DNA of 63,130 bases, counting the filler, from Folioceros fuciformis (Eukaryota): NCBI GenBank assembly GCA_049999805.1. It is 20 parts of 20 records of this genome, joined end to end, with 100 filler letters (N's around TTAATTAATTAA, not from the genome) between each part and the next. Parts side by side here need not be neighbours in the genome. Positions count along the whole stretch, not along the records: positions 32,139 to 35,596 come from JBNGIO010000706.1; 19 more parts are not named here. One strand, written 5' to 3'. Shown here in pieces: positions 5,499 to 63,130 of the stretch. A program made the position numbers and the translations under genes. The notes under the pieces were generated by a model. That model did no database searches and was not told the DNA's origin. It saw only the letters and a list, made by a program, of their open reading frames with translations. Numbering within the stretch: position 1 is the stretch's first letter; every line of letters starts with the position of its first letter.

Positions 5499-5992
5499 GT
5501 GACTGTGGCTGTCAATTGCACCGTGATTTTGTGGCGAAGGGGAGCGCGGTAGGGATGCCGGCTTCCCCTCAGCATCTCGGTGAAGGATTGTTGTGACCCG
5601 GATCAGGATGGGCGCGGCACATGTGTGAGTGATCTGGAGCGGTGCTTGTCATGCTTGGGTCGCGGTGTGTGCGTGCCATCCTGTAGCGGGTAGTTGCAAC
5701 TGAAACGAAACGAAAGGCACTTAAGTTGGAATAACGTTTCGGAATTCAAGCTGGAGTTTCGTTTCGAGTTTCTAGTTGGGGTTTCGTTTCGGTGTTAAAG
5801 TTGGAATAACGGTTCGTAGTTTTTAGGGTTCAGTTCTAGCATATTCTTTTTAATATCTTTTAGGCCTTTTTTTATTGTTTTTAGTGTAGTTTCTTTCTAT
5901 GCTTATAAACTCATAATGGGCTTACAATCTGTTTCCCTTGTGCTTGTAACTTTCAGCATCTTTTCTATTGTTTTTATTTCTTTCCCTTTTGG

Positions 5993-8900
5993 ATGGAAGT
6001 AGATGACATAGATGCTGATAGTGAATCAGATGTTAACATTAACACTCTCTCTGAGTCTTTATCTCATTTAGTGTTGTCTTCTGGTCCCATGAATCCATTA
6101 TTGGTGCAAGCACAAACACCTCAGATTTTCCCAATCATGGCTAGTTCTGCTCTTTCCATCCCTATTCCTTCAGTCGTTTCTTCTGGCTATGGGGGTGAAT
6201 TTAAAGAGAAAGACCGTTTTGATGGGAAACCTGCTAGGTATGAAGGTTGGCGAGCTCGTATGAAGGCACATCTGGATGCGCGTGATGTGTGGGAGTATGT
6301 TGACGGTACTCTACCCGATCCTCGCAAGACTCCAGTTACTGCTCCCAACCAACCAACTGCTAATGAGATTGCCAAGTAGAAGAAAGGGAACAAGACAGCC
6401 TTTGCTATTCTCCTCTCCGGCCTAGATGAACCTATGGTGACCGAGGTAGAGTACTTGGAATCTGCAGCAGCAGTGTGGAATCAGCTTAAGGAGACATATA
6501 AGGTGCAGAATATTCTTACTTTGGTAGCTGCTCGGAATGAATTTCATTCCTTACGTATGAAGGAGGGTGATTCGGTCGCTGCTCATATCAGCCGTTTCAG
6601 GCTTCTGCGGGCACAACTTACTTCTCTGGGGAGTGTTTTGGCCGAGAATGAGGCTGTTGTGCAGCTCCTTTCAAGTCTTCCTTCCTCCTACCAAAGTTTT
6701 GTTTCAACACAAAATGCAGCCTTACGATCTTCAGTAGCTGTTGTTTCTGCTGGCCAGGTGCAAACTCTTACATTCAGTGAGCTTGTTGGTGCACTTTTTC
6801 AAGAAGAGCAGTCCCGCCATCGGAGTGGGGGACAACCACAAAGAGCTAGGAGTGAGAAGGTGTTGTTCGCTGCCAGAGGAAAACCATTCGTGAAGAACAA
6901 AGGGAAGAAGGTTCCTGCCAATCCGGGAGCCCCCTCCACTAAGCGACAAGGCAATTGTCATTGGTGTCAACTTCCTGGTCATTGGGAGAGGGACTGTCGT
7001 AAGAAGAAAGCTGGAGAGCCAAAGAAGGAGGTTCGGCTGGAAGCTCATGTTGCTGCAAAGGACAAGGGCTCAGCAACCTCTTCTCGTAAGAGTAGCTCCA
7101 CAGTTCTTACAGTTTGCCTCACCTCTACTAGGAATGTTTCTTCTGCTTGGTATAATGATTCTGGGGCTACTTCTCATGTCTGCAACAATAGAAGTCTTTT
7201 CACTACTTATACACCACATACATCACCGCAGTTAGTTTATGTGGGGGATGCGAGAGGTGTAGATGTCAAGGGGGTTCGTACTGTTACCATACCATTGATA
7301 GGTGGTGAGGACATATTGTTAGAAGAGGTTTTGTACGTACTTGCTATGTCTAAGAACCTTCTTTCTGTAAGAGCCGCCACTAGGTTAGGTTGTTATGGCT
7401 TTACTTTTCAGCAAAGTAGTTGTTGCATGTTCAACCTAACTAACCCTGGTCATTGCATAGCACGTGGAGAGTTAGTAGATGAGTTGTACCAATTGCATGT
7501 TAACTCTTCAACTCCTCTGGTGTATGCCTTGTCTTCTTCGTTGGAGGCGAAACTTTGGCATGCTAGGCTTGGGCATGTTAATAAGGAGAAGCTGAACTTG
7601 ATGGCTTCTGTCAATTGCTTCCGAGAAAGGTTACCTTCGTGTTTTAAGAATCTTCCAGTTTGTAGTTCATGTGTGATGTCCAAGCAAAAGGAGCTACCAT
7701 TCAAGAACAAACAGGCGCAAAGAGCTCAAGTTGTTTTGGAGCTGATACATGCTGACATTGCTGGAAAAATCCAGGTCAAGTCTTTGGGTGGAGCAGAATA
7801 TTATCTCACTTTGACAGATGATTTTTCTCGGTATACTTGGGTGTTTCCTCTTCGACTAAAAAGTGATGTGTTTGGCTGTATTGAGTCTTGGATTTCCATG
7901 GTTCAGCGCCAAACAGGACAACTTGTGAAGTGTTTCCGTACTGATCATGGTGGAGAATTTTCTGGTCATTTGTATGATGACCTATTTAATTCTCTAGGTA
8001 TTGTGAGACAATTTTTAGTTCCATATACTCAGCAGCAAAATGGTGTTGCAGAAAGGAAAAATCAAACTCTCATGGGCATGACACGAAGTATGTTGAGTTG
8101 GGCTGGCTTACCTAAGAAGTTTTGGGCAGAAGCTATTTCAATTGCAGCATATATCCTAAATCGTGTGCTTACATCAGCTGTATTGGGCAAGACTCCCTAT
8201 GAGGTGTTTTGGAAGAAGAAGCCAAGTCTTCTTCATTTGAGAGTGTTTGGCTCCTTAGCTTATGCATATGTTCCTAAAAAGCGACGTCGTAAGCTTGACA
8301 ATCGTGCTAAGCCATATATATTTTTGGGATATTCAGAGACTTCCAAGGCATATAGGCTGTTTGATTCTCTTACCCATGAAGTTGTGTTGGCACGGAGTGT
8401 TGCTTTTGTGGAGCCAAGTACACCTAGGACTAGTCTTGTCACTGATCAGTTGGATTCAGTGGGGGTAGCTAATGCTTCAGCTGAAACAGATGGTTCTCCT
8501 TCTAGTTCTTCTAATGCTGAGCAACAGGATGATATTTCTTATGTACCACCTGCTGAGTATCCAGGGTCAGATGGTGAAGAGGGTATCGAATTACCTTTGT
8601 TAGATGTTACTCCTCTTGATGATGGACATGACGTGCCTGGACTTGTTGACTTGGGTGTAGATTCTCCTAGTGAAGGTGCTTCTGACGCTTCTGGTGATGG
8701 TGTTTTTGATAATCAGGATGATCCTGTAGTTGATGCAGCTCCAACTGTTGAGAAGCCTACTCCTTTAGCTGCTGAGCCTAGGTATCCTTCTCGTGAGCGG
8801 CGACCTCCCTCTCAATGGTTGGAACCTCCATACCAATCTATTGATTTTCGGCGTCCCCAAGCACATCATGTTGATTTGAAGGTTCCAGAGGTTCGTCCAG

Positions 8901-9835
8901 ATCCTCAATCTTATTCAGAAGCACTTCATGGCCCTGATGGTGAGAAGTGGAAGGTTTCCATTGCTGATGAGTACAACTCCTTGATCAAAAACCACACTTG
9001 GGAGTTGGCTGATTTGCCTGCTGGAAGGAAACCTATAAGTTGCAAGTGGGTATTCAAGACCAAGTTGAATGCAGATGGTTCTATTGCACGTTACAAGTCT
9101 CAGCTAGTAGCTAGGGGATTTAGTCAAATTCCCGGGATTGACTACGGCGATACCTTTTCTCCTGTAGTCAAGCCTCCCTCTATTCGTATTTTGATGGCTT
9201 TAGCTGCTGAACTTAACTTGGAGGTGCAACAGATGGATGTGTGTACGGCTTTCCTGCATGGTGAGTTAGAGGAGACATTATACATGGATCAGCCTGAAGG
9301 ATTTGTGGACAAACAACATCCTAAGAAGGTATGTTAGTTACTCAAGACGATCTATGGTTTGAAGCAGTCTCCCCGGGCTTGGTACAAGAGGATTATGAAG
9401 TATCTTAAGCAACTTGGCTTCCTACAGTCTCCTGCTGATAGCAATGTTTTCTTTCTCTCGGCTGGTTCTCAGTTTGTGATCCTTGCACTTTATGTGGATG
9501 ATTGTGTTTTGCTAAGCACTAGTTTGGAGCAGCTTGCAACTGTTAAGGATATGCTCCGCCGTGAGTTTGAAATGACAGATCAAGGAGACTTGCAATTCTG
9601 TTTGGGCATCCAAATCTTGAGAGACAGGTCAGCTGGTTGTATTACCTTGCATCAAACTAAGTATTTGAAGGAGATTTTGCATCGCTTTCATCTTCAAGAT
9701 GCGCGTCCTGTATCCACTCCCTCAGCAGTGGGGGTTAAGTTATCAGCTGAGGATTTCACTAGTGCCGATGCTGCTGAGATGGCAGCTGTACCTTATGCTG
9801 AGGCAGTGGGTTGTTTGATATTTCTCTCTAATTGG
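5993..9835 (+). mobile_element. Ty1/copia gag-PR-INT-RT, with in-frame stops at 6377 and 9335
   Basis: Gag Zn knuckle CHWCQLPGHWERDC, protease WYNDSGATSH, GAG-pre-integrase LWHARLGH, integrase TDHGGEF/QQNGVAERKN, RT QMDVCTAFLHG and LYVDD. Copia domain order. Confidence 0.97.
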
Positions 9836-12759: not shown

Positions 12760-13023
12760 TGTGGAGGCAAAACCCCGGGCACTGATTGCCAACGGGTCCC
12801 ACCTTTAGTGGCCACACTTATCCCACTGTCGTTGAGACATTGGGTTTCGTTCCCACGAAGGAGCGATGGGGTTCCTTGCTGCTGTGGATGGAGGGTCGGA
12901 CTTGATCGACTCGATGATGGATTCGAGGGCTCCCCTCCAGCTCCGATCAGGCGTAGGACAGGCCTCGCTGTCCGGCGGTCAGCTGCACCTCTCTCGGTGC
13001 CCACAAACTCACTCCAGTCACTA
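12760..13023 (-). mobile_element. 3' end of the high-copy long LTR (TGTGAACC...GCCTCCACA family)
   Basis: Begins TGTGGAGGCAAAACCCCGGG on +; near-identical to the copies at 25999, 32139, 61081 and 63070. Confidence 0.9.
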
Positions 13024-20182: not shown

Positions 20183-20543
20183 TGTGAACCTCCAAAGTTT
20201 GGGGTAGTAGTTTGTTTTGGTTGAAAAAGGGTTAATAATGGTATGGTTTGGTTTTCTTTTTCTACTTATTTTCCCTAATTTTCCTTGATTTTCTGGTCAT
20301 TTTTCCTACTTTTCTTTGTGCTAATTGGGTTAATTGACTAGGAAATAGTTGGTTTGGTTATAAGAGTGGGTATAGGTTTGGTCCCAGAGCTGGGAAGGTT
20401 TAGGTTCGGTACCAGGCCATAGGGTTGGGTGATTAGTTTAATATTAATTAAAGACATATAATATTAAATGATTAAATAATAATATAATAATATAAAATAA
20501 TATAATAATGGTTTGAACATAGGAACGGGTATCTGGGTATGTC
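20183..20543 (+). mobile_element. 5' end of the high-copy long LTR, subtype B
   Basis: TGTGAACCTCCAAAGTTTGGGG start interrupts the copia RNaseH; near-identical to 45438-45816. Confidence 0.9.
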
Positions 20544-20643: not shown

Positions 20644-21889
20644 GGTTAGTCTTCCATGGCCGAGGAACCATTTCGGCTGGAAGCTGATTCCGCTGAATAA
20701 GCTGCCGTTTTTAGGCCAGGTTTCGGCTGCTGATCCCACTTCTTCCCACCTCTTCTCTATCTTTCCCATTGCTCATGCTTCTCCCCTGGAGGCTGGCTCA
20801 ACGACCAAGGGTGAACAGTTGCAGGGGAAGACTTAGCGGGCGGCCATCCAGCAAGGAAGAGGCGGCGTCCGCAGATCTTTGAAGATCAGACATCCTCCGA
20901 AGTCTCAGGATAGTCTAAGAGGTGGTAGATCCTTATGGTGGTAGGGCCAGCTCATTGGTGGCACGATGTGCTAGAAGTCTAAATAAGTGGCTGGTGACAG
21001 CCGGCTAGGCTAGTGGTCCTATTAAAATAATATTTATCAACTTAGAGAGAGGTAAAGTCAGAGAGAGAGAGGCTCCTATAAGATCAGGTGAGCCTGTAGG
21101 AGGAGGTAGTCATTCACTTTGGGAGTCAGTCTGTCACTTCGTGAGCTCTTGGAGGTACTCTCTACATGAGCTCTTATGGTCTGTCCCTGCTTGGTTTAGG
21201 ATCTGCAGTGTGTTGCCGGCTGTGCAACCTCTGGTAGGATCGCAAGCCACGTGTTGCCGGTTGTACAGTGTCTAGTAGAATCACAAGGTGTAATGACCAG
21301 GGTGAAGGGGCTTGCCCCTAGCTCTTGATTGAAAAGGATGTGTCTTTCTCTCGACCTGTCCACTCTTGTTCCCTGTTTGGACAAGTACTGTAGGCCGGCC
21401 ATGTTTCAGGGCGTCTGGTAAGGTTGTGGGGAGGAGATATCCAAGAGGGGAGTGTGTTCCCTTCTTTCTTTTCTTTGGGGTTAGTCTAGTGACTCTAGCA
21501 GGGTAGGAGGAGTCAGTAGGGAACTGTAGAAGGTAGTGGTGTTGTTGTTAGTTGCTGGTGTTGGTGCTGGAGTGAGTGAGTGAGTGAGTGAGGGAAGTCG
21601 CAGATCTAAGAGGTCAGGGTCGTTGTAGTGACTGGAGTGAGTTTATGGGCACCAAGAGAGGTGCAGCTGACCGCTAGACAGCGAGGCCTGTCCTACGCCT
21701 GATTGGAGCTAGAGGGGAGCCCTCGAATCCATCATCAAGTCGATTGAGTCCGACCATCCATCCACAGCAGCAAGGAACCCCATCGCTCCTTCGTGGGAAC
21801 GGAACCCAATGTCTCAACGACAGTGGGATAAGTGTGGCTACTAAAGGTGGAACCCGTTGGCAATCAATGCCCAGGGTTTTGCCTCCACA
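20644..21889 (+). mobile_element. 3' part of the high-copy long LTR, probably subtype B
   Basis: Ends GCCTCCACA at 21889. From ~21280 it matches subtype A; the upstream part differs. Confidence 0.85.
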
Positions 21890-21974: not shown

Positions 21975-22339
21975 ATGGCAACAAATGTGGTTCAGCGTTT
22001 CGAAGCTAGCGACGGATATGATTGGAGCAAAATAAATACTTCAGACCTGGTCCAATAGCAGACATGTCGTTATCTTCCAAGTCAACCTTTGTCATAAATC
22101 TACCTGCAACACCAAATAGTGTCCATACATTAGTCTTCAATGCATTGAGTGATCTGCTCAAGGAACAACCAGTCACACCCTGTGTCCACTATGTAGAAAC
22201 CTTCACTTGTCATGTAGTACAGAAGCTACATTGTGAGTTTTGTTTTGCTCAACACATAAGTATTCAAATGTCTTTAGAGGTAAAGTGTCAACGAAATACA
22301 CCTTCCTCCTGCAAGGCTACCTTTCATTCTCTTAATTGA
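21975..22339 (+). pseudogene. Pre-gag accessory ORF (ORF0) with CxH-x7-H-x6-CxFC, probable frameshift near 22050
   Basis: LVFNALSDLLKEQPVTPCVHYVETFTCHVVQKLHCEFCFAQH. It ends 24 nt before the gag ATG at 22364. Confidence 0.55.
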
Positions 22340-22363: not shown

Positions 22364-25300
22364 ATGGCTGGGCAATAGCCTCAAACCCCTGTTGCCTTGG
22401 CGAAGGAAGACAAGTTTGATGGGGAAAATTTTAACCTCTGGAAGTTCCGTATGGAAGAATTGCTGAAGTCGAAAAATTTGTGGGAATATGTTGGTGCAGC
22501 TGTTGTGAAACTTGAACCACCAAACACTGCACCACCTGATGAGATTGCAGCATGGAAGACTGCAAATCAACAGGCAAGGAGTTCATTAACTATGAGTGTC
22601 AAGAGCTTGCACATAGCCACACTCATGGGCTCTATTACATCAGCGGCGGCACTCTGGCAACAACTACTCGAAGTATATGATGCTTCATACTTGATGCTAA
22701 AGACTCACACGCTCAAGTCTTTCGTATGCCAGAAGATGTCAGAAACCGACAGAGTTGCTGAATATGTTCTCACCTAGAGAAGTTGGTAAACCAAATTTCT
22801 GGCACTCGGCTTCCAACTCGACGAAGAAATAATGGCTGTCATCCTCCTATCACAACTGCCAGAAAGTTGGACCAATGTTATCCAATCCCTGCAGAATGTA
22901 GCGCAGATCACGGTAAACAGTGTCATCTCACCTATGCTCACTGAGGAAGATTGCCGAACTATGGCAACGTCCTCAACATCTGCAAGAGATAAGGCCTTGT
23001 TCATCAATAAACTTGGACGAGGCAGAGGCAGGGCTTTTGTCAAAGGAAGAGGCCGAGGACGTGGTATTTCATTCAGACCACAGCCTTTTAATGCTGGAAA
23101 GAGCAAGCCACCATGCGGCTATTGCGGAATTCCCAATCACACATGGGAAGTCTATGGAAAGAGACTGGCTAATTAGTCAGGAGGTAGCCACACAAGTGGT
23201 AATTTAGCAGTTGCTATGAAGAAGTATTCTAAGGCTTTTGCAGCCACCGTAGAAGAGGTTGCAAATCTACCGCATCATGCAACCAGTATCTCAGCATTGG
23301 TGATTACCTGTTACGCATCCCAGGCTGACCAGGTGTGGTACATAGATTCAGGAGCGTTTCAGCACATGACGCTAAATCATGCCTACTTCACAAATCTTGA
23401 ACCAATAAATGCTGAGAGGTTTGTTTGCCTGGGGAACAATACTAAGCACAAAATCGAAGGTCAAGGAACAATCCAGCTTGATCTCGAGCCTGATCAGCAC
23501 CTTGAAATTCCAGAGGTGCTCTACGTACCAGGATTAGCTAAAAACCTGGTATCCGTGCGAAAAATAGATCAGTCAGGTTGCTACATTTGCTTCGGCGGAG
23601 GCAAGTGCATAGTGGAGATGCCGGAAGGGAAGCTCATGGCTACTGGAGGACTCAAATCCGATGATTTATATCATCTGAACATCAAGCATGTTCAAGCCAA
23701 TGCAGCTGTGCACCCTGCACACATGGCAAAGCCATCGTTAACATATCTATGGCATTTGAGACTTGGCCATCTGAACTTCCAAAAGCTAGTACGCATGTAT
23801 AAAAATCAGCTGGTGAAGGGACTAAAGTTGGATATCTTATCTGACTTTGGTATTTGCAATGCGTGCGTTGTTGGGAAGCACCACCGAGCACCCTTTCCAT
23901 CAGAACCAGCTAAGAGAGCTACAAAACTGCTTGAGTTGGTGCACAGCGATGTATGTGGACCACTAGCTGCGTCACTAGGAGGCAAGACCTATTTTTTGTC
24001 ATTTATCGATGACTATTCGAGGTTCACTGTGATCTATCTCCTCAAAAGCAAGTCTGAAACCCTGTCCTGCTTTATGGAGTACAAAGTATGGGCAGAAAAC
24101 GAAATTGAGCACAGACTCAAGGCATTGTGTTCTGACAATGGCGGAGAGTATGTATCTACTGAGTTTCAGGCGTTTACCTTTGCAAATGGCATATCAAGGC
24201 AGCTGACAAATGCACACACTCCACAACAAAATGGTGTCGCCGAGAATAAGAACAAATCCCTGGAGACAATAGCTTCTAGTATGCTAACATACGCCAACCT
24301 TCCGAAGTGCTACTGGGCAGAAGTAGTAGCATATGCCACATTCATACAAAATCGGATAGAACATGCAGCTGTCCAGAATAAGACCCCCTACGAGCTTTGG
24401 AATGGAGAAAAGCCTGATGTTTCGCACATGAGGGTCTTCAGATCACTTGTTTATGTGCACGTTCATAAGGATCTTAGGCAGAAGTTTGACCCTAAGTCAA
24501 CATCTTGCATCTTTCTAGGCTTTACAGATGGTATCAAAGGATACAAAGTCATTGACAAGTGTGCCAGGCGGGTGACACATTCTCGGGATGTCATTTTTGT
24601 CGAAGGAGTGGAATCACTTGATTCAGTGGGAGCTGCCTCCCGGGACACACCTGAAGCATCCGATGATGAAGGGCAAGAAGTAGTGTCCTTAAATCCAACA
24701 GCTACTATACCACAAGTTACCGTACCACTAGCTAATCCTCCAGCTGGTGTACAAGGGCAGCAAGTTCCAGTTACGCCAATCACTCAACCTCCAAGTAGGC
24801 CCACCAGTAGTGCTGAAACAGAACCTATTATTCTTGGGGACTTTGACATAGAGGGAGTAGTGTCTCCTGGAGACTTGTTCTCTACACCCTCACATTATCA
24901 GCACGTGCCAACATCTGGAGTTGTGCAACGCAAGAAGAAGGTTGTCTCAGTACCTGTACAGCCAAGTCCAAGACCTATTAGGTCAACTACCGGGAAAATT
25001 GACTTGTACAAAGTTCATGATTGGTGGCATGGCAAGGGCTCAAACCACTCAAAGTCTAATCTGACTTACTGTTTGGCTGATGCAATTGAGCACTTTGAGC
25101 CTCAATCGTATGAGCAGGCATTGGCCTGTCCAGATGCTGAACATTGGAGGAAGGTAATCGCCTCCGAGCTGAATTCATTGAAGGAGAATGAAACGTGGGA
25201 ACTCACTCAGTTGCCACCTGGACGGAAGCTTGTTGGCAGTAAATCGGTGTTTAAGGTCAAATTGAAGGCTGATGGCAACATAGAACGTTACAAAGGCAAA

Positions 25301-25370
25301 GTAGTGGCAAAGGGCTACTCACAAGTTGCAGGGGTTGACTATACGGACACCTTCAGTCCTGTAGTAAAGA
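22364..25370 (+). mobile_element. Copia gag-PR-INT-partial RT, decayed and truncated by an insertion
   Basis: KFDGENFNLWKFRME, CGYCGIPNH, WYIDSGAFQH, LWHLRLGH, SDNGGEY, YTDTFSPVVK. Confidence 0.95.
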
Positions 25371-25998
25371 TGTAAAGAAAAGTACAGCAGGAGAAGAGAG
25401 CATAAACAAAAATATTGAAATATGCATAAGTTAATAATATAAAGAGTTGTGTAATGTATATAAGCCTATCCTCTAGGCTAAGCACCCCTTGACTTAATAA
25501 CCTAAATATAATTAACTGAGAGGTTAATGTAAATCAATCTAGGTGAAACCCTAAGCGAGGGAGGTTACCCCGTAACACCCTCCCTTAAGCGAGCGAGCTT
25601 AGGGACTGAGCACGGGGACCTCGTGTGAAGGTGGCGCTTGTGCGGGACGATCACAAGGGAGAGGCAGGCGCGGGGGCACTCATCGATGCAAGGACGTGAG
25701 CTGGCCAGATGGAGTCAACTATAAATCGGGCGACAGCATATGCAAGATTCCTAGCAGCCAGCTTTCTGTGCGTCCAAGTGACGAGGGCCATACTGCTGTG
25801 CACAATGATGCCCGAGGAGCATCCTGAGGAGCGTCCAACCAAGCGGAGTAGAGACGCCAATAGGGCGGGGAAGAAACGCCCTACTAAGCGTCCAACTGTG
25901 GAAGAAGAGTGGGATGAAACCCACGCAGCGGGAACCAGCCTGAGGATTGGGGGCTGGAGAGTCGTATTCAATATGTCAATGTGCTGGAAGAAGCCCGG
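25371..25998 (-). mobile_element. Nested element 3' end: 207-bp LTR (25577-25371), PPT (25578-25588), and a 3' region with an antisense ORF from 25709
   Basis: On the minus strand TTAAGGGAGGG is followed by TGTTAC...TTTACA. It interrupts the host RT right after FSPVVK. Confidence 0.8.
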
Positions 25999-26279
25999 TG
26001 TGGAGGCAAAACCCCGGGCACCGATTGCCAACGGGTTCCACCTTTAGTGGCCACACTTATCCCACTGTCGTTGAGACATTGGGTTTCGTTCCCACGAAGG
26101 AGCGATGGGGTTCCTTGCTGCTATGGATGGAGGGTCGGACTTGATCAACTCGATGATGGATTCGAGGGCTCCCCTCCAGCTCCGATCAGGCGTAGGACAG
26201 GCCTCGCTGTCCGGCGGTCAGCTGCACCTCTTTCGGTGCCCACAAACTCACTCCAGCCACTACAACGACTCTAACCTCT
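25999..26279 (-). mobile_element. 3' end of the high-copy long LTR
   Basis: Same sequence as 12760-13023. Confidence 0.9.
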
Positions 26280-30416: not shown

Positions 30417-31297
30417 GAGTTTCACGACTGAAAAAAAAACTTTGCACTCGACAACATGACTCTGCTGACCTACTTTCTCTCAATCTGCACGCTGCTGCTG
30501 NNNNNNNNNNNNNNNNNNNNNNNNNNNNNNNNNNNNNNNNNNNNTTAATTAATTAANNNNNNNNNNNNNNNNNNNNNNNNNNNNNNNNNNNNNNNNNNNN
30601 AAGGTGTAAAAGCCCTGCCCTACCCACAATTGCTGAAGGTAAAGCATTAGAAGGGGAAGCGCCATCGTCACCCAAGCGCAAGGGAGGACATCCAAGAGAT
30701 CCAAGTGCAAGCATCCACCATTAGAGACCATGGAAGCCCAGCAGGAGCTTAGGGCAAGTCGGCCTCGATCCAGGGAGCGATCAGCTAGTGCTGACAGTAG
30801 CCGAAGGACACTTAGGTCGCCTCCTCATAGCAGAGCAACAGAGCACAGTGCCTACCTACCAGGACAACCGAAGCATACCCCTGAGCCTACTCAGGTATAT
30901 CACATTTGTAGGCATTCAGCAGGTGTTGTGAATTCCAGGGTCACAACCACGAATAGCAGATTTCATCCTACACAGCAACCATGGAGAAGGCCTCGCTCAA
31001 GCGGTGTGGAGGTGCTGGAGGTTGTGCCCTCCAGTGTGTGCTATGAGTGTCTCCAATTCAAGCACGTTTCTCAAGGCAGGATGGGACCCTAGTTTGTGGA
31101 TGATGAGAGCGCGGGCAAGTGGAGTCTTTTTTATTCACGCAAGTATGACCCAAAACGAGGTATTCCACCTGCAAGTTATGATGAACTTCACACCTCCTTG
31201 TTGTATGTTGAGGAGCATCATGAAAGTTGTAGGGTGGAGTATTATCTCAATGAACACAGGGATTTGTTTGAACTCCAGCGCCGGGGTTATAAGCGGT

Positions 31298-32038
31298 TGT
31301 GAACCTCCAAAGTTTGGGGTAGTGGTTTGTTTTGGTTGAAAAAGGGTTAATAGCGGTATGGTTTGGTTTTCTTTTTCTACTTATTTTCCCTAATTTTCCT
31401 TGATTTTTTGGTCATTTTTCCTATTTTTCTTTGAGCTAATTAGGTTAATTGACCAGGAAATAGTTGGTTTGGTTATAAGAGTGGGTATAGGTTTGGTTCC
31501 AGACCTGGGAAAGTTTAGGTCCGGTACCGGGCCATAGGGTTATTAAAGCCCAATGTGCTTAGGCTAATGTGATTAGTTTAATTAGGCTAATGTAATTAGT
31601 TTAATTAGGCTAATGTAATTAGTCTAAGATTAGTGTCTAATTAAGTATCATTAGTTTAGATTAGCTTAAGCTAATTTTTAGGAAGCTTCCTGCATAGCTT
31701 CCTGTGAGCTTCTTGTGAAGCTTCCTGTGATCTTCTTGTGAAGCTTCCTTGGGAGCTTTTCTAGAGGGTATAAATACCCTCTTGAGCTTCCTTTTCAAGA
31801 GAGATGAGAGAGATGGGAGAGAGCTGTGAGAGACATTGTGACCTCTCTTTCTCCTCTTCTCCTCTCTTCCTCTCCTCTCCTCTTCTCCTTCATCATGTGG
31901 CTCCCTTTCTGATCCTTCAAGGATCACAAGGTGTAATGACCAGGGTGAAGGGGTTTGCCCCTAGCTCTTGATTGTAAAGGATGTGTCTTTCTCTTGACCT
32001 GTCCACTCTTGTTCCCTGTTTGGACAAGTGCTGTAGGC
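31298..32038 (+). mobile_element. High-copy long LTR, subtype A, 5' part
   Basis: TGTGAACC start; TATAAATA near 31768; the core matches the 290-bp copia LTR. Confidence 0.9.
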
Positions 32039-32138: not shown

Positions 32139-33252
32139 TTGAGACATTGGGTTTCGTTCCCACGAAGGAGCGATGGGGTTCCTTGTTGCTGTGGATGGAG
32201 GGTCAGACTCAATCGACTCAATGATGGATTCAAGGGCTCCCCTCCGGCTCCGATCAGGCGTAGGACAGGCCTCGTTGTCCAGCAGTCAGCTACACCTCTC
32301 TTGGTGCCCACAAACTCACTCCAGTCACTACAACGACCCTAACCTCTCAGATCTGCGACTTCCCTCACTTACTTCACTCGCTTTCTCACTCTAGCACCAG
32401 CACCAACAACTAACAACGACACAACTACCTTCTACACTTCCCTATTGACTCCTCCTACCCGGCAAGAGTCACTAGACTAACCCCAAAGAAGAGAAAGAAG
32501 GGAACACACTCCCCCCACACCCCTCGGATATCTCCTCCCCACAACCTTACCAGACGCCATGAAACATGGCCGGCCTTCAGCAGTTGTCCAAATAGGAAAC
32601 AAGAGTGGACAGGTCGAGAGAAAGACACATCCTTTACAATGAAGAGCTAGGGGCAAGCCCCTTCACCCTGGTCATTACACCTTGTGATCCTTGAAGGATC
32701 GGAAGGGAGCCACATTATGAAGGAGAAGAGGAGGGGAGAGGAGAGGAAGAGAGGAGGAGAGGAGAAAGAGAGGTCTCACAATGTCTCTCACAGCTCTCTC
32801 TCATCTCTCTTGCAAAGGGAGCTCAAGAGGGTATTTATACCCTCTAGAAAAGCTCCCAAAGAAGCTTCACAAGAAGCTATGCAGGAAGCTTCCTAAAAAT
32901 TAGCTTAAGCTAATCTAAACTAATGATACTTAATTAGATACTAATATTAGACTAACCACATTAGTTTAATTAGACTAATCGCATTAGTTTAATTATATTG
33001 GGCTTTAATAACCCTATGGCCCGGTACCGGACCTAAACTTTCCCAGGTCTGGGACTAAACCTATACCCACTCTAATAACCAAACCAACTATTTCCTGGTC
33101 AATTAACCAATTAGCACAAAGAAAAATAGGAAAAATGACCAGAAAATAAAGGAAAATTAGGAAAAAGAAGTAGAAAAAGAAAACCAAACCATACCACTAT
33201 TAACCCTTTTTCAACCAAAACAAACCACTACCTCAAACTTTGGAGGTTCACA
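32139..33252 (-). mobile_element. High-copy long LTR, subtype A, nearly complete, preceded by a PPT
   Basis: On the minus strand GAGAAGGGGGGGA is followed by TGTGAACC at 33252. It links the 5' and 3' fragments seen elsewhere into one LTR of ~1.2 kb. Confidence 0.9.
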
Positions 33253-33298
33253 TCCCCCCCTTCTCAACTATTTGCGTTCTCGCAAACAACTAACCCTC

Positions 33299-33934
33299 TC
33301 ATGGTTGATAATACTTCTTGACTTGCCAACCATTGACCCTGCCTTTGCCAGTCGCTGCCTTTGCCAGTTTTGAAGTTTGAAGATGTGAAGCATTGAAGGA
33401 TGTCACAAAATGTGACCATGATTCTGGGAGAGACAGTAAGAGGTATAAGGTTAACATGTCTTCTTTGACACTCTCCTTTGAGGCACTCTCCAGTTTGGAG
33501 ACAAGTGTCATGAAATGACCAAGGTGCTTCTCTACTGATTCTCCATCTTTCATCTTGCAATTCTGTGAATTTCGCAAGGCTGTCAACTAACTCATTGTGT
33601 TGCTACTTGAATACAGGTCCTGAAGTCGTGTCCAGATTTCTGCTAAGGTTTTACATCCGGATGTCTGCCTCAGCATATCTAAGGTTAAACCACTCCGGAC
33701 GAAGAACATGGCAGCTTCATCTTTTGCCACCCATTCGTCATGTTTCAACTTTTCAGCAGTGGTAGTTGTGGTGGTAGTAGTTGGGAAGTCTTCATCACAA
33801 ACAACTATCTTCCAAAGCTTCTTATTTTGTAAAGCTCCACGCATTCTGATTACCCATATGTCGTAATCATACCCACCAAATCTGTCCTTTTCTCTAAACC
33901 CTTCCCCACCATAGCTAGATGAGGGATCAGCCAT
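33299..33934 (-). mobile_element. Copia gag, decayed and truncated
   Basis: YGGEGFREKDRFGGYDYDIWVIRMRGAL...KMKDGESVEKHL...LLLSLPESWSHFV (UBN2-type gag). Confidence 0.85.
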
Positions 33935-34022
33935 TTTTCTTCTTTAGTATTTTGAGTTAGCTACTCCCAAAACACTAAGATACTAAAAATGACTGACCTT
34001 TGTAGGTTTGTTTATCTGGACC

Positions 34023-34610
34023 TCAAGCATATGTATCTTCAGCAACAGAGTCAGAGAATGTTAGCAGCAGGTTGGACAAACCATCTACAAGTATGTTTAT
34101 TAACCCCTGATGCTGTGTAGCGTTCCCTATTCTCTGATTTCTAATCTCCAACATGTTGTACGAATGTAGTGCACAGAAAGGACAAGAATTTAAATTGTTA
34201 AACTTATGAACTCTATTTGTTTTCTTTGCGTGCTTACAAGCTGCTCCTCTAAAAGCAAGATTAGCAAGCAAGGTAGGCTTCAACAAGGTTAGCAGTCTAA
34301 AGTCCAAATGATCTATCTTTTCAATTAGATCATGCAAGTCAACAGTCACTGCAGTAATCCTTTGTGAGATACAATCAAAACGCATGTCAACTTGTTGCTG
34401 GTGTGCCTCAATCTTGTTTATGAATTCATCAGCTGTAGGTGATTGAGAGAAATGAGAAGTTAGGAAACCTCTCTGATTATAATTTCTTTGAAGTAGTCGT
34501 TCTGTTGCAGCATTCCATGATGCTTGCGCGACGACTTCTGGCCCCTTGTGACGATTCTGGTGATGAATCCGCTCAGCAAGGCGATGTCGGCCATCCACTT
34601 GATCGGCCAT
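34023..34610 (-). CDS. Intact pre-gag accessory ORF (ORF0, 195 aa): coiled coil plus CxH-x7-H-x7-CxFC
   Basis: Same strand as gag, ending 88 nt before the gag ATG. The motif CKHAKKTNRVHKFNNLNSCPFCALH is shared with 21975-22339. Confidence 0.65.
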   Translation of the reverse strand: MADQVDGRHRLAERIHHQNRHKGPEVVAQASWNAATERLLQRNYNQRGFLTSHFSQSPTADEFINKIEAHQQQVDMRFDCISQRITAVTVDLHDLIEKIDHLDFRLLTLLKPTLLANLAFRGAACKHAKKTNRVHKFNNLNSCPFCALHSYNMLEIRNQRIGNATQHQGLINILVDGLSNLLLTFSDSVAEDTYA

Positions 34611-34928
34611 TCATTTGACAAGATTTTTGTGTTGACAAAATTCCTTTTTAAATATTATGTGTTATTTATGAATGCCACTAATAATCTGACTATAGATTAG
34701 GTAGTTGTCCTAGCACATCCTTGTTGATTTTGCTGAGGTAGCAAACCGGAAGGGATGCGTTGGGATCACTCCCTTAATCTAATAGAAATTACAAGTGCAT
34801 CTTCATAAACTATCAACACAAAATATATACTTTCTATTCTTTGTTTCTTAATTAAGAAACTTAATTTCTAGATCAAAATAAACAAGAAGACTACATAAAT
34901 GCATTTTTAAACGTACATTCATTACACC

Positions 34929-35053
34929 ACAACCTGCATCCTATTGCTATGATACCATGCACAACCTGCATCATATTGCTATGATACCATGCACAACTTG
35001 CATCCTACTACTATGGTACCATGCACCACGTGCATCCTATTGCTACGGTACCA
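34929..35053. repeat. 32-bp tandem repeat x4 containing a PBS-like motif
   Basis: Unit ACAACCTGCATCCTATTGCTATGATACCATGC; the minus strand reads TGGTATCATAGC. Confidence 0.85.
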
Positions 35054-35249
35054 TAACAAATTTAGGTAATTATAGATCAATTAAACATATTAAATAATCA
35101 CATTGTGTCAAGAATACAATAATAATGTCTTGGTAATAAGAATAACTTAAGTCACTTACAATAATAATGTATTGATCATAAGAATAACTTAAGTCACCTC
35201 TGAAACGTGAAACGTTGTGACCTAATCAAAGGACAAAACCCTCATGACA

Positions 35250-35507
35250 CAGTGCTCGCTATTGACACATTAGATTCATGTCCTCCTCCTCTAATTTGTG
35301 CATGAAGATGCTTGCCCTTCTGCAACGCTGGGGCGCCCATACTTGCACACGTCTGCAGGAGGCACACAAAGGTATTTGCATCAGGTACACCCATGCCTTC
35401 ACCTTGCATGGAATTGTTGAGATGGAGGGCTTCCTCGACCATACCTTGCCGAGAATATCTTGCTATCACGGTAGTCCAAGTTAATACATTTTTTTGATCA
35501 AGTTCAT
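35250..35507 (-). pseudogene. PLS-class PPR fragment
   Basis: KNVLTWTTVIARYSRQGMVEEALHL..MQGEG..PDANTFVCLLQTCAS..ALQKGKHLHAQI..HESNVSIAST, i.e. P-L-S motifs. Cut at 35249 and by a microsatellite. Confidence 0.88.
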
Positions 35508-35508
35508 T

Positions 35509-35596
35509 ATCTATCATATCTATCATATCTATCATATCTATCATATCTATCATATCTATCATATCTATCATATCTATCATATCTATCATATCTATC
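35509..35596. repeat. (ATCTATCAT)n microsatellite
   Basis: About 10 perfect 9-bp units up to the contig end. Confidence 0.97.
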
Positions 35597-36142
35597 NNNN
35601 NNNNNNNNNNNNNNNNNNNNNNNNNNNNNNNNNNNNNNNNTTAATTAATTAANNNNNNNNNNNNNNNNNNNNNNNNNNNNNNNNNNNNNNNNNNNNTTTC
35701 CGGTGGAGTGTCGACCCCTCTTACGGATGAGGAGTCCCCACTTGATTCCGAATCAGCCATGGCAGCCTATGATGAGTCTGATGAAGATGACACCCCGTTG
35801 ATACAGTGACCTAGGGAGCAGCAAAGGGACCGAAGGCTACCATCAGTCACCAACCCCGCAGCCCTAAATTCCACCCCAACTGAGATAGAGACACTGAGGG
35901 ATCCTGGACCAAGCCAGCCAATAGTTGAGGTAGGGTACCAGGTAGGGGATTTGGCGATGACACCAGTAGTGCAAGCACACAGTGGAGCACCAAATTTGGG
36001 GAGAAGGAGCCCAGTGAATTGGGAAGCAGCCCGAGGAGCACACGCCACAAGCCAAGGTAACGATACTTCGTTGGGAGTGTGGAGCAACATCGTTCGGTGT
36101 GGCCAATAGCTACAACACATCAATTGGGGAGAGGCCCGTGTA

Positions 36143-36724
36143 ATGATTGCAACCCTACTACAGGAGGACATAAGTCGGGATGCAAACCAAGCACGACTAG
36201 AATCCAAAGTGCAGGAATTGGAAAAGGAGCGAGAACAGTATCTCCTCAAGGATGGTGAGCAAAGGCAAGGACTGGAGAAGTTGACCCAGCAGGTGACCAC
36301 TTTGCAAACTTCCCAACAAGGTTTATCACATGAGATCATTGCATGTCAAAGGGACCTCGCCCAGTCTGAGGAAACTAGGAAGGTGGTGGAGGAACAGCTA
36401 CGGGAACAAGTCTACGTTGCAAAGGATTTGCAAGGCAAGCTAGATGAGTTGGAGGCACAGAATGCTAAAGCAAACCAGGAACTCCAGCAACGACTTGAAG
36501 CAGGGCAACGAGAGCGAGTAGAGAGGGAACAATTGACCATCCAATTAGAAGACCTTCAGCAGGAGAAAGCACAACAAGAAGCTGAGCATCAGACCAAGAT
36601 TCACAGGATGCTGGTGGTTCGAGGTCGTAGGTTTCGTGTTGACTATGCCTACTTGACGGGGTGCATGACCAAGCTTCATGCAACTCATCAAAAAAACCTT
36701 GACCTACAGTTGAAGGTCCCTTGA
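36143..36724 (+). other. Long coiled-coil ORF remnant, probably a transposon accessory protein
   Basis: E/Q/L heptad-rich 193 aa; flanking frames are broken by stops; 24-bp repeats at ~37043-37125. No family recognised. Confidence 0.4.
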
Positions 36725-37520: not shown

Positions 37521-37571
37521 AACCCTTTTTCAACCAAAACAAACTACTACCCCAAACTTTGGAGGTTTCCA
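37521..37571 (-). mobile_element. 5' stub of the high-copy long LTR
   Basis: ...CCCCAAACTTTGGAGGTTTCCA matches 33201-33252. Confidence 0.8.
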
Positions 37572-39147
37572 TCAGAAATTTGACATGAAAGACATTGGAG
37601 CTCTTACCTTTGTCCTCGGTGTCCAAATTATTCGTGATCTGGAAGCTGGCTCCCTTATGCTTCACCAAGCTAAATATATTGCTGAAACCCTGCACCGTTT
37701 TCACCTGGACACTGCTAAACCCGTATCTACTCCTGGAGTTGCAGGATTGAAGCTTTCTCATGATCAGTGTCCACAGACAGATGAGGAGCGCCAGGCTATG
37801 GCTCAGATTCCTTATCGTCATGCCGTGGGATGCCTCAATTACATTAGCTGTTGGACACGGCCAGACATTCAGTATGCTGTGAGCTCCGTCTCCCAGTTCC
37901 TTGATAACCCTGGCCCTGCACACTGGAGTGCTGTTAAACGTGTCCTTAGATATCTTAAGGGCACCATGCAATATGGCCTCTGCTTCCGGGGGCGAGAACA
38001 GGCACCTACCTTGTGCGGGTATGCTGATGCCGACTGGGCCACCGACCCAGATGCCAGGAGAAGCATCTCGGCATATTGCTTTACTTTGAATCACACTGCC
38101 ATTCACTGGAGTTCGAAGAAGCAATCTTCTGTTGCTCTGTCATCCATCGAAGCAGAATATAAAGCCTTGACGGAAGGTGCCAAAGAAGCTGTATGGGAGC
38201 GGTGTTTTCTGGCAGGCCTTGGATTTCCACAGTCACAGCCCACTCCTATTTACTGTGACAACATGTCCACAATAGCCCTGACTGCCAACCCCCGTTTCCA
38301 TGCGCGTACAAAGCACATCAAAGTGCACCATCACTTTATCCGGCATTCTGTGGAGCAACAACATGTGAAAATTCAATATGTTTCGACAGACCTAAACACG
38401 GCCGACATTCTGACAAAGTATCTTCCTGCTAGCAAGCACTATCAACATCTGGAGGCTATGGGTGTACAGGCTTGCCCTGACTCCCAGACCTAGTTTCTAC
38501 GAACTCCTGACCAGCTGCAGATTATGGTGGATGAAGCAACAAGCTCAACGTAATCGCATACTGTAGCTGACAGAGTACTTAGCTGTCTTGTGGCAGCGGG
38601 CTTGCAGCAGCGCATTTGAATTGCGCGTACAACTCATCTTCAGGGTGCAATGCTGGGACGGCGTCCAACTTCTTCACAGTCAACCAGAGTTGTAGCTGCC
38701 ACTCCCAGCCTGCTATTTGCCATCGTTGTTCAGTTGTAAACGCGCTATATCTTTGTTGACGGCCAGCCGTCTGGGCTTTCAGCTGTGCGCGTCCTCCGAC
38801 GTTTGTTCCTCCTTTGCTCTTCGCGCCAGTGCTGGTACAAGAGGTAGATCGCAATCACGAAGGAGCAAAGGGCGAGGCATTGGGCTATGGAGCCTGACAT
38901 GTTTGCGCCGTCACACCCAGCTAACTAGCGTGCTCCGTTTACGGGGGCGTGTTAGAAGAGAACCCTGTTATGGTTCTTATATAAACGAAGCAGCTTAATA
39001 GCTGTTAGTTATTTAATACCTAGGTTAATTTGAATAGACATGACTCTTGGATAATTTTGATATATAAGACACTTTGTATATTCATTAATATAACTTTTTT
39101 TCATTACCAGCACTTTGTGCGCATGAGTACATCTGATTTTATCAACA
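37572..39147 (+). mobile_element. Copia 3' end: RT-RNaseH (stop 38493), 3' region, PPT, 198-bp LTR 38950-39147
   Basis: YADADWA, KKQSSVALSS.EAEY, NPRFHARTKHI. ACGGGGGCG is followed by TGTTAG...TCAACA. Confidence 0.9.
38579..38900 (-). pseudogene. Antisense ORF with an N-terminal transmembrane-like segment, probable frameshift
   Basis: MSGSIAQCLALCSFVIAIYLLYQHWREEQRRNKRRRT (38900-38745). An overlapping frame continues to 38579. Confidence 0.4.
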
Positions 39148-45437: not shown

Positions 45438-45816
45438 TGTGAACCTCCAAAGTTTGGGGTAGTAGTTTGTTTTGGTTGAAAAAGGGTAAATAGTGGTATG
45501 GTTTGGTTTTCATTTTCAACTTATTTTCCCTAATTTTCCTTGATTTGCTGGTCATTTTTCCTATTTTCTTTGTGCTAATTGGGTTAATTGACTAGGAAAT
45601 AGTTGGTTTGGTTATAAGAGTGGGTATAGGTTTGGTCCCAGACCTGGGAAGGTTTAGGTTCGGTACCAGGCCATAGGGTTGGGTGATTAGTTTAATATTA
45701 GTTAAAGATATATAATATTAAATGATTAAATAATAATAAATAATATAATAATGGTTTGAACATAGGAACGGGTATCTGGGTATGTCAGTGTCAGGGGTCA
45801 GGGTCTGACGATAGGC
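45438..45816 (+). mobile_element. 5' end of the high-copy long LTR, subtype B
   Basis: Matches 20183-20543. Confidence 0.9.
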
Positions 45817-61080: not shown

Positions 61081-61286
61081 AGGCCTGTCCTACGCCTGAT
61101 CGGAGCTGGAGGGGAGCCCTCGAATCCGTCATCGAGTCGATCAAGTCCGACCCTCCATCCACAGCAGCAAGGAACCCCATCGCTCCTTCGTGGGAACGAA
61201 ACCCAATGTCTCAACGACAGTGGGATAAGTGTGGCCACTAAAGGTGGAATCCGTCGGCAATCAGTGCCCGGGGTTTTGCCTCCACA
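61081..61286 (+). mobile_element. 3' end of the high-copy long LTR
   Basis: Ends GCCTCCACA. Confidence 0.9.
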
Positions 61287-63069: not shown

Positions 63070-63130
63070 TGTGGAGGCAAAACCCCGAGCACTGATTGCC
63101 AACGGGTTCCACCTTTAGTGGCCACACTTA
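63070..63130 (-). mobile_element. 3' end of the high-copy long LTR, runs off the window
   Basis: TGTGGAGGCAAAACCCCG... Confidence 0.88.

What the first reader, a model, noticed from the sequence alone, without database searches (positions are those of the whole stretch)
34023..34610. Copia elements with a separate pre-gag ORF carrying a conserved CxH-x7-H-x6/7-CxFC motif
Seen: an intact 195-aa ORF lies 88 nt upstream of a copia gag on the same strand, with a coiled-coil stretch and CKH-AKKTNRV-H-KFNNLNS-CPFC-ALH. A different copia on another contig has CVH-YVETFTC-H-VVQKLH-CEFC-FAQH in the same position, with a similar lead-in (LDFRLLTLLK vs LVFNALSDLLK). The DNA shows no obvious similarity, so the conservation is at protein level. 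Known: canonical copia encode only gag-pol; extra 5' ORFs are a hallmark of Ty3 Ogre, and Sireviruses carry theirs 3'. Inference: a lineage-specific zinc-binding accessory protein, such as a silencing suppressor or regulator, that I cannot match to a named family.
Basis: partly seen in the sequence, partly recalled or inferred. Interest (0 to 1): 0.8.

Follow-up and report, generated by a model that had tools for sequence, protein, structure and literature searches.

The report
Orphan ORF upstream of copia gag
A real-looking 195-codon gene of unknown family sits just upstream of the gag gene of one decayed plant copia retrotransposon, but the "conserved zinc motif" said to link it to a second element is no better than chance.

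Summary
The window is 20 short contigs joined by N spacers. The finding lies on a 3.46-kb contig (32139-35596).

Confirmed:
- An intact 195-aa ORF (34610..34023, minus strand) ends 88 nt before a copia gag ATG (PF14223).
- The ORF is not chance: 0 of 3000 shuffles reach 195 aa.
- Its codon usage matches the window's gag/pol ORFs.
- A PBS-like 12-mer lies 336 nt upstream on the same strand, so the ORF probably sits inside the element's leader.

Not confirmed:
- Conservation. The second ORF (22022-22339) is only 105 codons in a decayed element.
- BLASTP does not align the motif. The local alignment score (40) is reached by 2.55% of shuffles.
- That score ties for 2nd-3rd among 116 similar-sized window ORFs.
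- Two other related gag starts have no pre-gag ORF.

ORF195 has no Pfam hit and no relative among 1.84 billion representative proteins. Its structure model is useless (pLDDT 42). Zinc binding and silencing suppression are untested.

Both elements are broken. Other copies, dN/dS and expression could not be examined.

Best reading: a lineage-restricted 5' additional ORF, a kind already catalogued in plant LTR retrotransposons. Interest is low to moderate.

The parts
34023..34610 (-). ORF195: intact ATG-to-stop ORF of 195 aa (22.3 kDa, pI 8.4), the finding itself.
   Evidence: Searches give the coordinates. 0 of 3000 dinucleotide shuffles of 33935-35241 give an ORF >=195 aa; the longest is 142. 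In-frame codon score is 0.177 bits/codon, against 0.13-0.35 for the window's gag/pol ORFs, and 0 of 2000 stop-free shuffles reach it. No Pfam, PDB or protein-library relatives.
34164..34238 (-). Cys/His cluster C125-x-H127-x7-H135-x7-C143-x2-C146-x2-H149 inside ORF195.
   Evidence: Present as read. No zinc-finger family matches at E <= 1. Metal binding was not tested.
34314..34397 (-). Heptad-periodic (coiled-coil-like) stretch, residues 72-99 of ORF195.
   Evidence: My own crude a/d-position score is 0.85, reached by 2 of 500 shuffles. AF2 draws a helix at 60-99 but with pLDDT below 40.
33935..34022 (-). 88-nt spacer between the ORF195 stop and the gag ATG. gag is in a different frame from ORF195.
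   Evidence: Sequence read directly. 34610-33934 = 676, which is not a multiple of 3.
33587..33934 (-). Copia gag, N-terminal piece (115 aa), ending in a premature in-frame stop at 33589..33587.
   Evidence: PF14223 Retrotran_gag_2, E 6.5e-10, profile positions 1-78 of 172.
33299..33586 (-). Copia gag continuation in the same frame, ending at a second stop (33301..33299).
   Evidence: PF14223, E 1.9e-10, profile positions 93-147 of 172. Same frame as the first piece, since 33934-33553 = 381.
32139..33255 (.). Repeat R: an unrelated dispersed repeat of ~1.2 kb with LTR-like TGTG...CACA ends. It interrupts the copia 44 nt after the gag frame closes and runs to the contig end.
   Evidence: blastn finds copies at 78-94% identity on other contigs of the window. 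It has a sharp terminus with a different flank at each of 5 copies.
34928..35054 (-). Four tandem 32-bp units. Two of them carry TGGTATCATAGC preceded by TGCA, a primer-binding-site-like sequence 336 nt upstream of the ORF195 ATG.
   Evidence: TRF: period 32, 4.0 copies. The 12-mer copia/iMet PBS consensus, recalled from general knowledge, matches with 1 mismatch at 34946-34957 and 34978-34989 on the minus strand. These are the only 2 matches in the window; 0.33 are expected by chance for the whole window.
35242..35481 (-). PPR gene fragment on the same strand, upstream of everything else. It is either host flank or material captured in an LTR.
   Evidence: PF13041 PPR_2, E 4.2e-08. ORF listed.
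22022..22339 (+). ORF105: the second 'motif' ORF (105 codons stop-to-stop, 91 from ATG). It ends 24 nt before a degenerate copia gag ATG at 22364.
   Evidence: No Pfam hit and no homologues. Length p = 0.013; codon score p = 0.087.
22364..25375 (+). Decayed Ty1/copia on contig 7. gag has TAG at codon 5 and further stops. The pol frame is cut within the reverse transcriptase domain.
   Evidence: Pol_BBD, gag_pre-integrs, rve, SH3_retrovirus and RVT_2 occur in copia order. Its gag is 25% identical to the contig-12 gag.
21277..21889 (-). Copy of repeat R that truncates the contig-7 pre-gag region 474 nt upstream of the gag ATG. No LTR or PBS of that copia is visible.
   Evidence: No PBS match at <=1 mismatch on contig 7.

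Best explanation
ORF195 is a genuine, or very recently genuine, protein-coding ORF carried in the leader of one decayed Ty1/copia copy, between the primer binding site and gag. That makes it a lineage-restricted 5' additional ORF (aORF), a kind already catalogued in plant LTR retrotransposons.

Shown: it is an intact ORF with codon usage like the neighbouring TE genes. It lies on the gag strand, 88 nt upstream of gag in another frame.

Inferred:
- It is the first cistron of the element's genomic RNA.
- Its product is a 22-kDa, mildly basic, mostly helical protein with a heptad segment (possible self-association) followed by a Cys/His cluster.
- It most likely acts on the element's own RNA or particle, for example as an RNA-binding or regulatory accessory factor.
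- Its translation would lower downstream gag initiation.

The resemblance to the ORF upstream of the contig-7 copia is best read as coincidence, not as a conserved family.
For: 1. Not a chance ORF. 0 of 3000 shuffles of the 1307-nt gag-to-PPR interval give an ORF >=195 aa; the longest is 142.
2. Coding-like. The codon log-likelihood, trained on the window's TE ORFs, is 0.177 bits/codon in frame. The other five frames score -0.06 to -0.60. This is within the range of gag/pol (0.13-0.35), and 0 of 2000 stop-free shuffles reach it.
3. Same strand as gag and only 88 nt from its ATG. That is too short for an LTR plus PBS. So either the ORF is internal to the element or the copia was deleted precisely up to its gag start.
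4. TGCA|TGGTATCATAGC lies 336 nt upstream on the same strand, with 1 mismatch to the copia iMet PBS consensus. These are the only 2 matches in 63 kb, against 0.33 expected window-wide. By my inference, about 0.003 would be expected in the 1.3 kb upstream of gag on that strand.
5. 5' aORFs without recognisable domains are a described class: passages of PMC11728184, PMC7264820 and PMC2533021.
Against: - Only one copy is visible. No second copy occurs in the window.
- No relative was found anywhere. There were 0 hits in the near-length protein search and 0 in 1.84 billion representatives. There were 0 in metagenome, prokaryote-genome and viral contigs by 8-residue patterns, which reach only very close relatives.
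- There is therefore no evidence of conservation or purifying selection.
- No LTR could be delimited. Only about 190 nt separate the PBS-like array from a PPR fragment, and the 3' half of the element is off-contig.
- The PBS-like 12-mer has a mismatch and sits inside a tandem repeat, so its two matches are one event.
- The element is dead: it has two stops in gag and a repeat insertion. ORF195's intactness could reflect youth of the copy and not selection. By my estimate, P is about 0.16 for no stop at the gag rate.
- Two other gag starts lack any pre-gag ORF: contig 2, the closest gag in the window at 32% identity, and external locus L001.
- The structure model is uninformative: pLDDT 42.2, pTM 0.24.
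- Function is pure inference.
Confidence: 0.5

Rival explanations
1. ORF195 is host-derived. Either it is an orphan host gene or exon that happens to abut a 5'-deleted copia fragment, or it is a host gene fragment transduced into this one copy (Bs1-like capture). In that case it is not a regular component of the family.
For: - The locus is a mosaic of PPR fragment, AT-rich repeats, ORF195, broken gag and an inserted repeat.
- No LTR could be defined.
- Only one copy is seen in the window.
- The closest gag in the window has no such ORF.
- The abstract of PMC7264820 notes that aORFs present in one or a few copies are explained by transduction.
Against: - No plant or other protein resembles ORF195 (0 hits). 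A donor gene cannot be named.
- The gag ATG and its 88-nt leader are preserved. A deletion ending exactly there is an a priori unlikely coincidence.
- A PBS-like sequence lies upstream of the ORF, not between the ORF and gag.
- Codon score and GC3 (0.35) are close to those of the TE ORFs.
Confidence: 0.22
2. ORF195 and ORF105 are homologues of an ancient pre-gag gene shared by distant copia lineages. The gene encodes a zinc-binding accessory protein defined by CxH-x7-H-x6/7-CxFC-x2/3-H.
For: - Both ORFs lie directly upstream of a copia gag on its strand, at 88 and 24 nt.
- Both are longer than most shuffles give: 0 of 3000, and 1.3% of 3000.
- The regular expression built from the two motifs hits only these two places in the six-frame translation of the window. 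It was designed on them, so this is not an independent test.
- The two gags are only 25% identical. A faster-evolving partner gene could have drifted below detection.
Against: - BLASTP and tblastn do not align the motif.
- Among 116 window ORFs of similar size it ties for 2nd-3rd, behind an unrelated ORF at 42.
- The ORF lengths differ, and so do the motif-to-gag distances (229 against 111 nt, my arithmetic).
- ORF105 has no significant coding signal.
- 2 of 4 gag starts examined have no pre-gag ORF.
- Neither ORF has any homologue.
- No zinc-finger model matches.
Confidence: 0.07
3. ORF195 is a non-functional open frame in a long non-coding copia leader. It is never translated into a working protein and would matter at most as an upstream ORF that affects gag translation.
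For: - No homologue, no domain and no confident fold.
- The ESM Atlas 'recognition' value is 1425, below the 2300 that 91 in 100 known-family proteins reach.
- An out-of-frame ATG lies 4 nt upstream of the ORF's ATG, and the -3 position is T.
Against: The length (0 of 3000 shuffles) and the in-frame codon usage (0 of 2000) are hard to get without a coding history.
Confidence: 0.12

Closest known systems
5' additional ORFs (5'aORFs) of plant Ty3/gypsy chromoviruses (Tekay group; e.g. sunflower Tekay 13-2, rice RIRE3/RIRE8, Retrosat-2)
   Same: - A separate sense ORF lies between the 5' LTR and gag.
- The product has no known domain and is partly helical.
- There is no amino-acid similarity even between species (passages of PMC11728184).
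   Different: - Those are Ty3/gypsy elements and this one is Ty1/copia.
- Those ORFs are conserved in hundreds of copies, 500 of 523 in sunflower. Here only one copy could be seen.
Ogre (Ty3/gypsy Tat lineage) ORF1 upstream of gag
   Same: A separate ORF precedes gag on the same strand. A passage of PMC2533021 describes a 1527-bp ORF upstream of GAG in Medicago Ogre families.
   Different: - Ogre is a giant gypsy element that uses a tRNA-Arg primer and has an intron in pol.
- Its ORF1 is about 2.6 times longer.
- ORF195 shows no match to any library protein.
Sirevirus (Ty1/copia) env-like ORF
   Same: An extra ORF in a Ty1/copia element.
   Different: It lies downstream of pol, not upstream of gag, as stated in the abstracts of PMC3599292 and PMC7264820. 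Transmembrane helices in ORF195 were not tested with a dedicated tool.
Gene transduction by LTR retrotransposons (maize Bs1)
   Same: A foreign ORF sits inside an LTR retrotransposon and is present in one or a few copies (passage of PMC7264820).
   Different: A donor host gene is identifiable for Bs1. None is identifiable for ORF195.

Membership tests
Ty1/copia LTR retrotransposon (the element next to ORF195, contig 12) | copia-type gag (Retrotran_gag_2) | tested here: met
   PF14223 matches at E 6.5e-10 and 1.9e-10 in two pieces of one frame. The gag is broken by an in-frame stop.
Ty1/copia LTR retrotransposon (the element next to ORF195, contig 12) | pol with the order protease-integrase-RT-RNase H | not testable with these tools
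   The element is interrupted by repeat R at 33255, and the contig ends inside R. No genome is held.
Ty1/copia LTR retrotransposon (the element next to ORF195, contig 12) | flanking LTRs and a tRNA-iMet primer binding site directly after the 5' LTR | tested here: inconclusive
   A PBS-like TGCA|TGGTATCATAGC with 1 mismatch is found, repeated in tandem. No LTR pair is available, and only about 190 nt lie between this array and a PPR fragment.
5' additional ORF (aORF) of plant LTR retrotransposons | sense ORF located between the 5' LTR/PBS and gag | tested here: inconclusive
   The ORF is on the same strand, 88 nt before gag and 336 nt after the PBS-like site. The LTR boundary is not established.
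5' additional ORF (aORF) of plant LTR retrotransposons | present in all or most copies of the element family (as opposed to one-off transduction) | not testable with these tools
   There is no other copy in the window. No genome is held. Read laying gave no result.
Conserved pre-gag protein family shared by the two copia elements (as proposed) | significant sequence similarity between ORF195 and ORF105 | tested here: not met
   BLASTP gives no alignment of the motif. SW has p = 0.0255. Rank is tied 2nd-3rd of 116 decoy ORFs.
Conserved pre-gag protein family shared by the two copia elements (as proposed) | recovered upstream of gag in other related elements | tested here: not met
   The contig-2 copia has no pre-gag ORF. 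External locus L001/L002 has none, and neither ORF195 nor ORF105 finds any similarity there. The sample is small: 4 gag starts.
Zinc-finger / zinc-binding domain (any Pfam family) | match to a zinc-binding domain model or a confident fold with a Cys/His site | tested here: not met
   Pfam at E <= 1 gives only three sub-threshold non-zinc families. The PDB sequence search gives one chain at E 0.17, unrelated. AF2 has pLDDT 42 and draws helices through the motif. Metal binding itself is not testable here.
Ogre ORF1 | carried by a Ty3/gypsy Tat/Ogre element | tested here: not met
   The adjacent gag is the copia type, PF14223.

The most novel reading that the evidence does not exclude
ORF195 is the intact representative of a previously undescribed accessory gene carried between PBS and gag by a family of Ty1/copia elements in an early-diverging land plant. 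It would encode a self-associating helical protein with a C-x-H...H...C-x2-C...H metal site that acts on the element's RNA or on host silencing. ORF105 would be a decayed, very distant homologue, implying that the gene is old within copia.
Probability: 0.07. Interest if true: 0.6.

Novelty: new member of a known kind. Interest (0 to 1): 0.25.

Why it matters
Accessory genes of plant LTR retrotransposons are poorly understood. Ty1/copia elements are usually treated as gag-pol only.

If ORF195 proved to be a regular, conserved component of a copia family, it would add a 5' accessory gene to copia. It would also give a small, tractable protein to test for RNA binding or anti-silencing activity.

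As it stands the evidence shows one orphan ORF in one dead copy. The feature that made the finding striking, a motif conserved across two elements, does not survive testing. Its present value is as a lead for a genome-wide check.

Tried and rejected
PROTEIN AND FAMILY SEARCHES (all empty)
- Pfam for ORF195 and ORF105 gave nothing above threshold.
- The near-length protein search gave 0 hits for ORF195 and 0 for ORF105.
- A full HMMER scan of 1.84 billion representatives gave 0 hits at E <= 0.001.
- The PDB sequence search gave one chain at E 0.17, not meaningful.
- ESM Atlas: best cosine 0.79 and recognition 1425, unnamed Streptophyta clusters. These are leads only and I rejected them as evidence.

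STRUCTURE
- AF2 from the single sequence gave pLDDT 42.2, so no fold search was run.

CONTIG COLLECTIONS
- Pattern scans for ORF195 in metagenome, prokaryote-genome and viral contigs gave no confirmed relative. These scans need exact 8-residue words, so they exclude only close relatives.
- A gag-profile scan of metagenome contigs gave 2 loci that are one locus (99.9% identical). Its gag is 33% identical, and it has no pre-gag ORF.

OTHER TOOLS
- Rfam on 32139-35506 gave 0 matches at E <= 1. tRNA scan of the window gave 0.
- No genome is held for this window.
- Sequencing runs: 2 DNA runs of one study hold about half of the words. No RNA holder is listed.
Copy number, variants and expression therefore remain unexamined.
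- Earlier findings of the scan: nothing to show.

IDEAS REJECTED
- ORF195 as an N-terminal extension of gag. It is in a different frame, and stops lie in the spacer.
- ORF195 as a gag duplicate. There is no PF14223 signal at E <= 1.
- Repeat R as the LTR of either copia. Its terminus has a different flank at each of 5 copies.

LITERATURE
- Searches for a pre-gag ORF in copia or bryophyte elements found no description of such a protein.
- The catalogue of about 4000 aORFs cited in PMC11728184 (its reference 47) and all supplements were not seen. They could hold a relative.

Full report
CONTEXT

The 63,130-base window is not one locus. It is 20 short contigs (1.1-7.3 kb) joined by spacers of 44 N + TTAATTAATTAA + 44 N. 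The finding lies on contig 12 (32139-35596, 3458 bases). The 'different copia on another contig' lies on contig 7 (20644-26279). No whole genome is held for the window, so everything below rests on these short contigs and on public protein and contig collections.

THE OBSERVATION

An ATG-to-stop ORF of 195 aa runs from 34610 to 34023 on the minus strand. It is also 195 codons stop-to-stop. Exactly 88 nt downstream on the same strand, at 33934, a copia-type gag begins. It matches PF14223 Retrotran_gag_2 at E 6.5e-10 for 33934..33587 and at E 1.9e-10 for 33553..33299. The two gag pieces are in one frame separated by a premature stop at 33589..33587. A second stop closes the frame at 33301..33299.

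From 33255 to the contig start lies a different, dispersed repeat, which I call R. It is about 1.2 kb long and has copies at 78-94% identity on many other contigs. Its terminus is sharp, its ends are LTR-like (TGTG...CACA), and the flank differs at each of 5 copies. So the copia is a dead copy interrupted by R, and the contig ends inside R.

In ORF195 they are C125, H127, H135, C143, C146 and H149.

IS ORF195 MORE THAN CHANCE?

Yes.
- In 3000 dinucleotide-preserving shuffles of the 1307-nt interval between the gag ATG and the upstream PPR fragment, no ATG-ORF on that strand reached 195 aa. The longest was 142, and 1.2% reached 100.
- I trained a codon log-likelihood on eight TE ORFs of the window. 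It gives ORF195 0.177 bits/codon in frame and -0.06 to -0.60 in the other five frames.
- That value is in the range of the window's gag and pol ORFs (0.13-0.35). None of 2000 stop-free shuffles reaches it.
- A crude heptad score of my own supports a coiled-coil-like stretch at residues 72-99; 2 of 500 shuffles reach it.

IS ORF195 INSIDE THE ELEMENT?

Probably.
- The 88-nt spacer cannot hold an LTR and a primer binding site. So either the ORF is internal or the copia was deleted exactly up to its gag leader.
- 336 nt upstream of the ORF's ATG, on the same strand, lies a 32-bp unit repeated four times (34928-35054).
- Two of the units read TGCA|TGGTATCATAGC. That has one mismatch to the copia tRNA-iMet primer-binding consensus, which I recalled from general knowledge.
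- These are the only two matches in the window, against 0.33 expected window-wide. Because they are tandem copies they count as one event.
- I could not delimit an LTR. Only about 190 nt of AT-rich, repeat-containing sequence lie between this array and a PPR gene fragment (PF13041, E 4.2e-08). A (GATAGATAT)n microsatellite follows at the contig end.

IS THE MOTIF CONSERVED?

This is not supported.
- The contig-7 ORF (22022-22339) is 105 codons stop-to-stop, 91 from its ATG.
- It ends 24 nt before a gag ATG at 22364. That gag has a TAG at codon 5 and further stops, and its pol frame breaks off in the reverse transcriptase domain.
- A copy of R cuts the upstream region 474 nt before that ATG. 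No PBS match is present there.
- BLASTP of the two ORFs does not align the motif; the only alignment, elsewhere, has E 8.2. tblastn at E <= 10 finds nothing between them.
- The best local alignment does cover the motif. It scores 40 (BLOSUM62, 11/1), which 2.55% of 2000 shuffles reach.
- Against all 116 window ORFs of 80-140 aa, ORF105 ties for 2nd-3rd. An unrelated ORF antisense to a gypsy-type integrase contig scores 42.
- With only the C-terminal 100 residues of ORF195 as query, ORF105 ranks first, but by one point (40 against 39).
- ORF105's length has p = 0.013. Its codon score has p = 0.087. It has no Pfam hit and no homologue.

I could examine four copia gag starts.
- One has ORF195.
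- One has ORF105.
- Two have no pre-gag ORF. These are contig 2, whose gag at 32% identity is the closest in the window to the contig-12 gag, and the external locus L001/L002 with a gag 33% identical.
- A fifth gag, on contig 17, has its start off-contig.

WHAT IS ORF195 RELATED TO?

Nothing I could find.
- Pfam gives three sub-threshold, non-zinc families, best E 0.048.
- The near-length library search found none.
- A full HMMER pass over 1.84 billion representative proteins gave 0 hits at E <= 0.001.
- PDB sequences gave nothing meaningful.
- ESM Atlas neighbours score 0.77-0.79 with low recognition.
- The single-sequence AlphaFold2 model is all-helical at pLDDT 42.2, so I ran no fold search.
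- Pattern scans of three contig collections gave no relative. They can detect only close relatives.

No RNA holder was listed.

INTERPRETATION

The best-supported reading is that ORF195 is a lineage-restricted 5' additional ORF in the leader of one copia copy. If expressed, it is translated as the first cistron of the genomic RNA.

Its product is 22 kDa with pI 8.4. It has a heptad segment followed by a Cys/His cluster. I therefore commit, as inference only, to a self-associating accessory protein that acts on the element's own RNA or particle. Its translation would incidentally lower gag initiation.

Rivals are:
- a host-derived ORF, either adjacent to or transduced into this copy;
- a non-functional leader ORF;

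COMPARISON WITH WHAT IS KNOWN

Pre-gag ORFs are described for Ogre (passage of PMC2533021) and for Tekay chromoviruses. In Tekay they are domain-less, partly helical and not alignable between species (passages of PMC11728184).

[quoted passage not shown] I did not see that catalogue or any supplement.

The review PMC7264820 (abstract and passages) notes that aORFs confined to one or a few copies are usually transductions.

My four literature searches found no description of a copia pre-gag protein with this motif.

VERDICT

- The ORF and its position are real.
- The conservation that made the finding interesting is not demonstrated.
- The zinc-binding and silencing ideas are untested.
- It is a new member of a known kind (an orphan 5' aORF) seen in a single decayed copy.
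- It is worth one genome-wide tBLASTn and not more until that is done.

Noticed in passing
window 1-63130: The window is a concatenation of 20 short contigs (1.1-7.3 kb) separated by N44+TTAATTAATTAA+N44 spacers. Apparent neighbourhood across a spacer therefore means nothing.
   Followed up: yes
window 32139-33255; also 21277-21889, 25999-26279, 12760-13023, 61081-61286, 63067-63130, 31295-32038, 20183-20426, 45438-45680, 37521-37573: An abundant dispersed repeat R of ~1.2 kb with LTR-like ends (TGTGGAGG...GGTTCACA). Its terminus is sharp and the flank differs at each copy. Many contigs end inside it, so it probably broke the assembly.
   Followed up: partly
window 21609-21889 with 25999-26279, and 61081-61286 with 63067-63130: On both contigs that hold two copies of R, the same terminus faces inward in inverted orientation. 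The two copies bracket a 4.1-kb copia fragment on one contig and a 1.8-kb segment on the other. Unexplained; it may be chance or an assembly effect.
   Followed up: no
window 34928-35054 (-): A 32-bp unit repeated four times, each holding a tRNA-iMet PBS-like 12-mer preceded by TGCA. It looks like a tandem duplication of an LTR-end/PBS junction.
   Followed up: partly
window 35242-35596 (-): A PLS-type PPR gene fragment (PF13041) that ends in a stop. It is preceded at the contig end by a (GATAGATAT)n microsatellite, which reads through as MIDMIDMID....
   Followed up: partly
window 5909-9337 (+), contig 2: A nearly intact Ty1/copia gag-pol. It has a 985-aa open frame holding gag, Pol_BBD, gag_pre-integrs, rve, SH3 and RVT_2. 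One in-frame stop separates the gag N-terminus from the rest. There is no pre-gag ORF.
   Followed up: partly
window 36143-36724 (+) and 35767-36339 (-), contig 13: Two overlapping ORFs of ~190 aa on opposite strands. The plus-strand one is rich in E/Q/L and coiled-coil-like, with only weak sub-threshold Pfam hits.
   Followed up: no
L001 and L002 (whole loci): The same decayed copia locus (99.9% identical over 8.2 kb) was recovered from two different metagenome records, presumably plant DNA in environmental samples.
   Followed up: no
window 34587-34618 (-): A 16-bp direct duplication spans the ORF195 start codon. An out-of-frame ATG lies 4 nt upstream and opens a 13-codon overlapping mini-ORF.
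   Followed up: no
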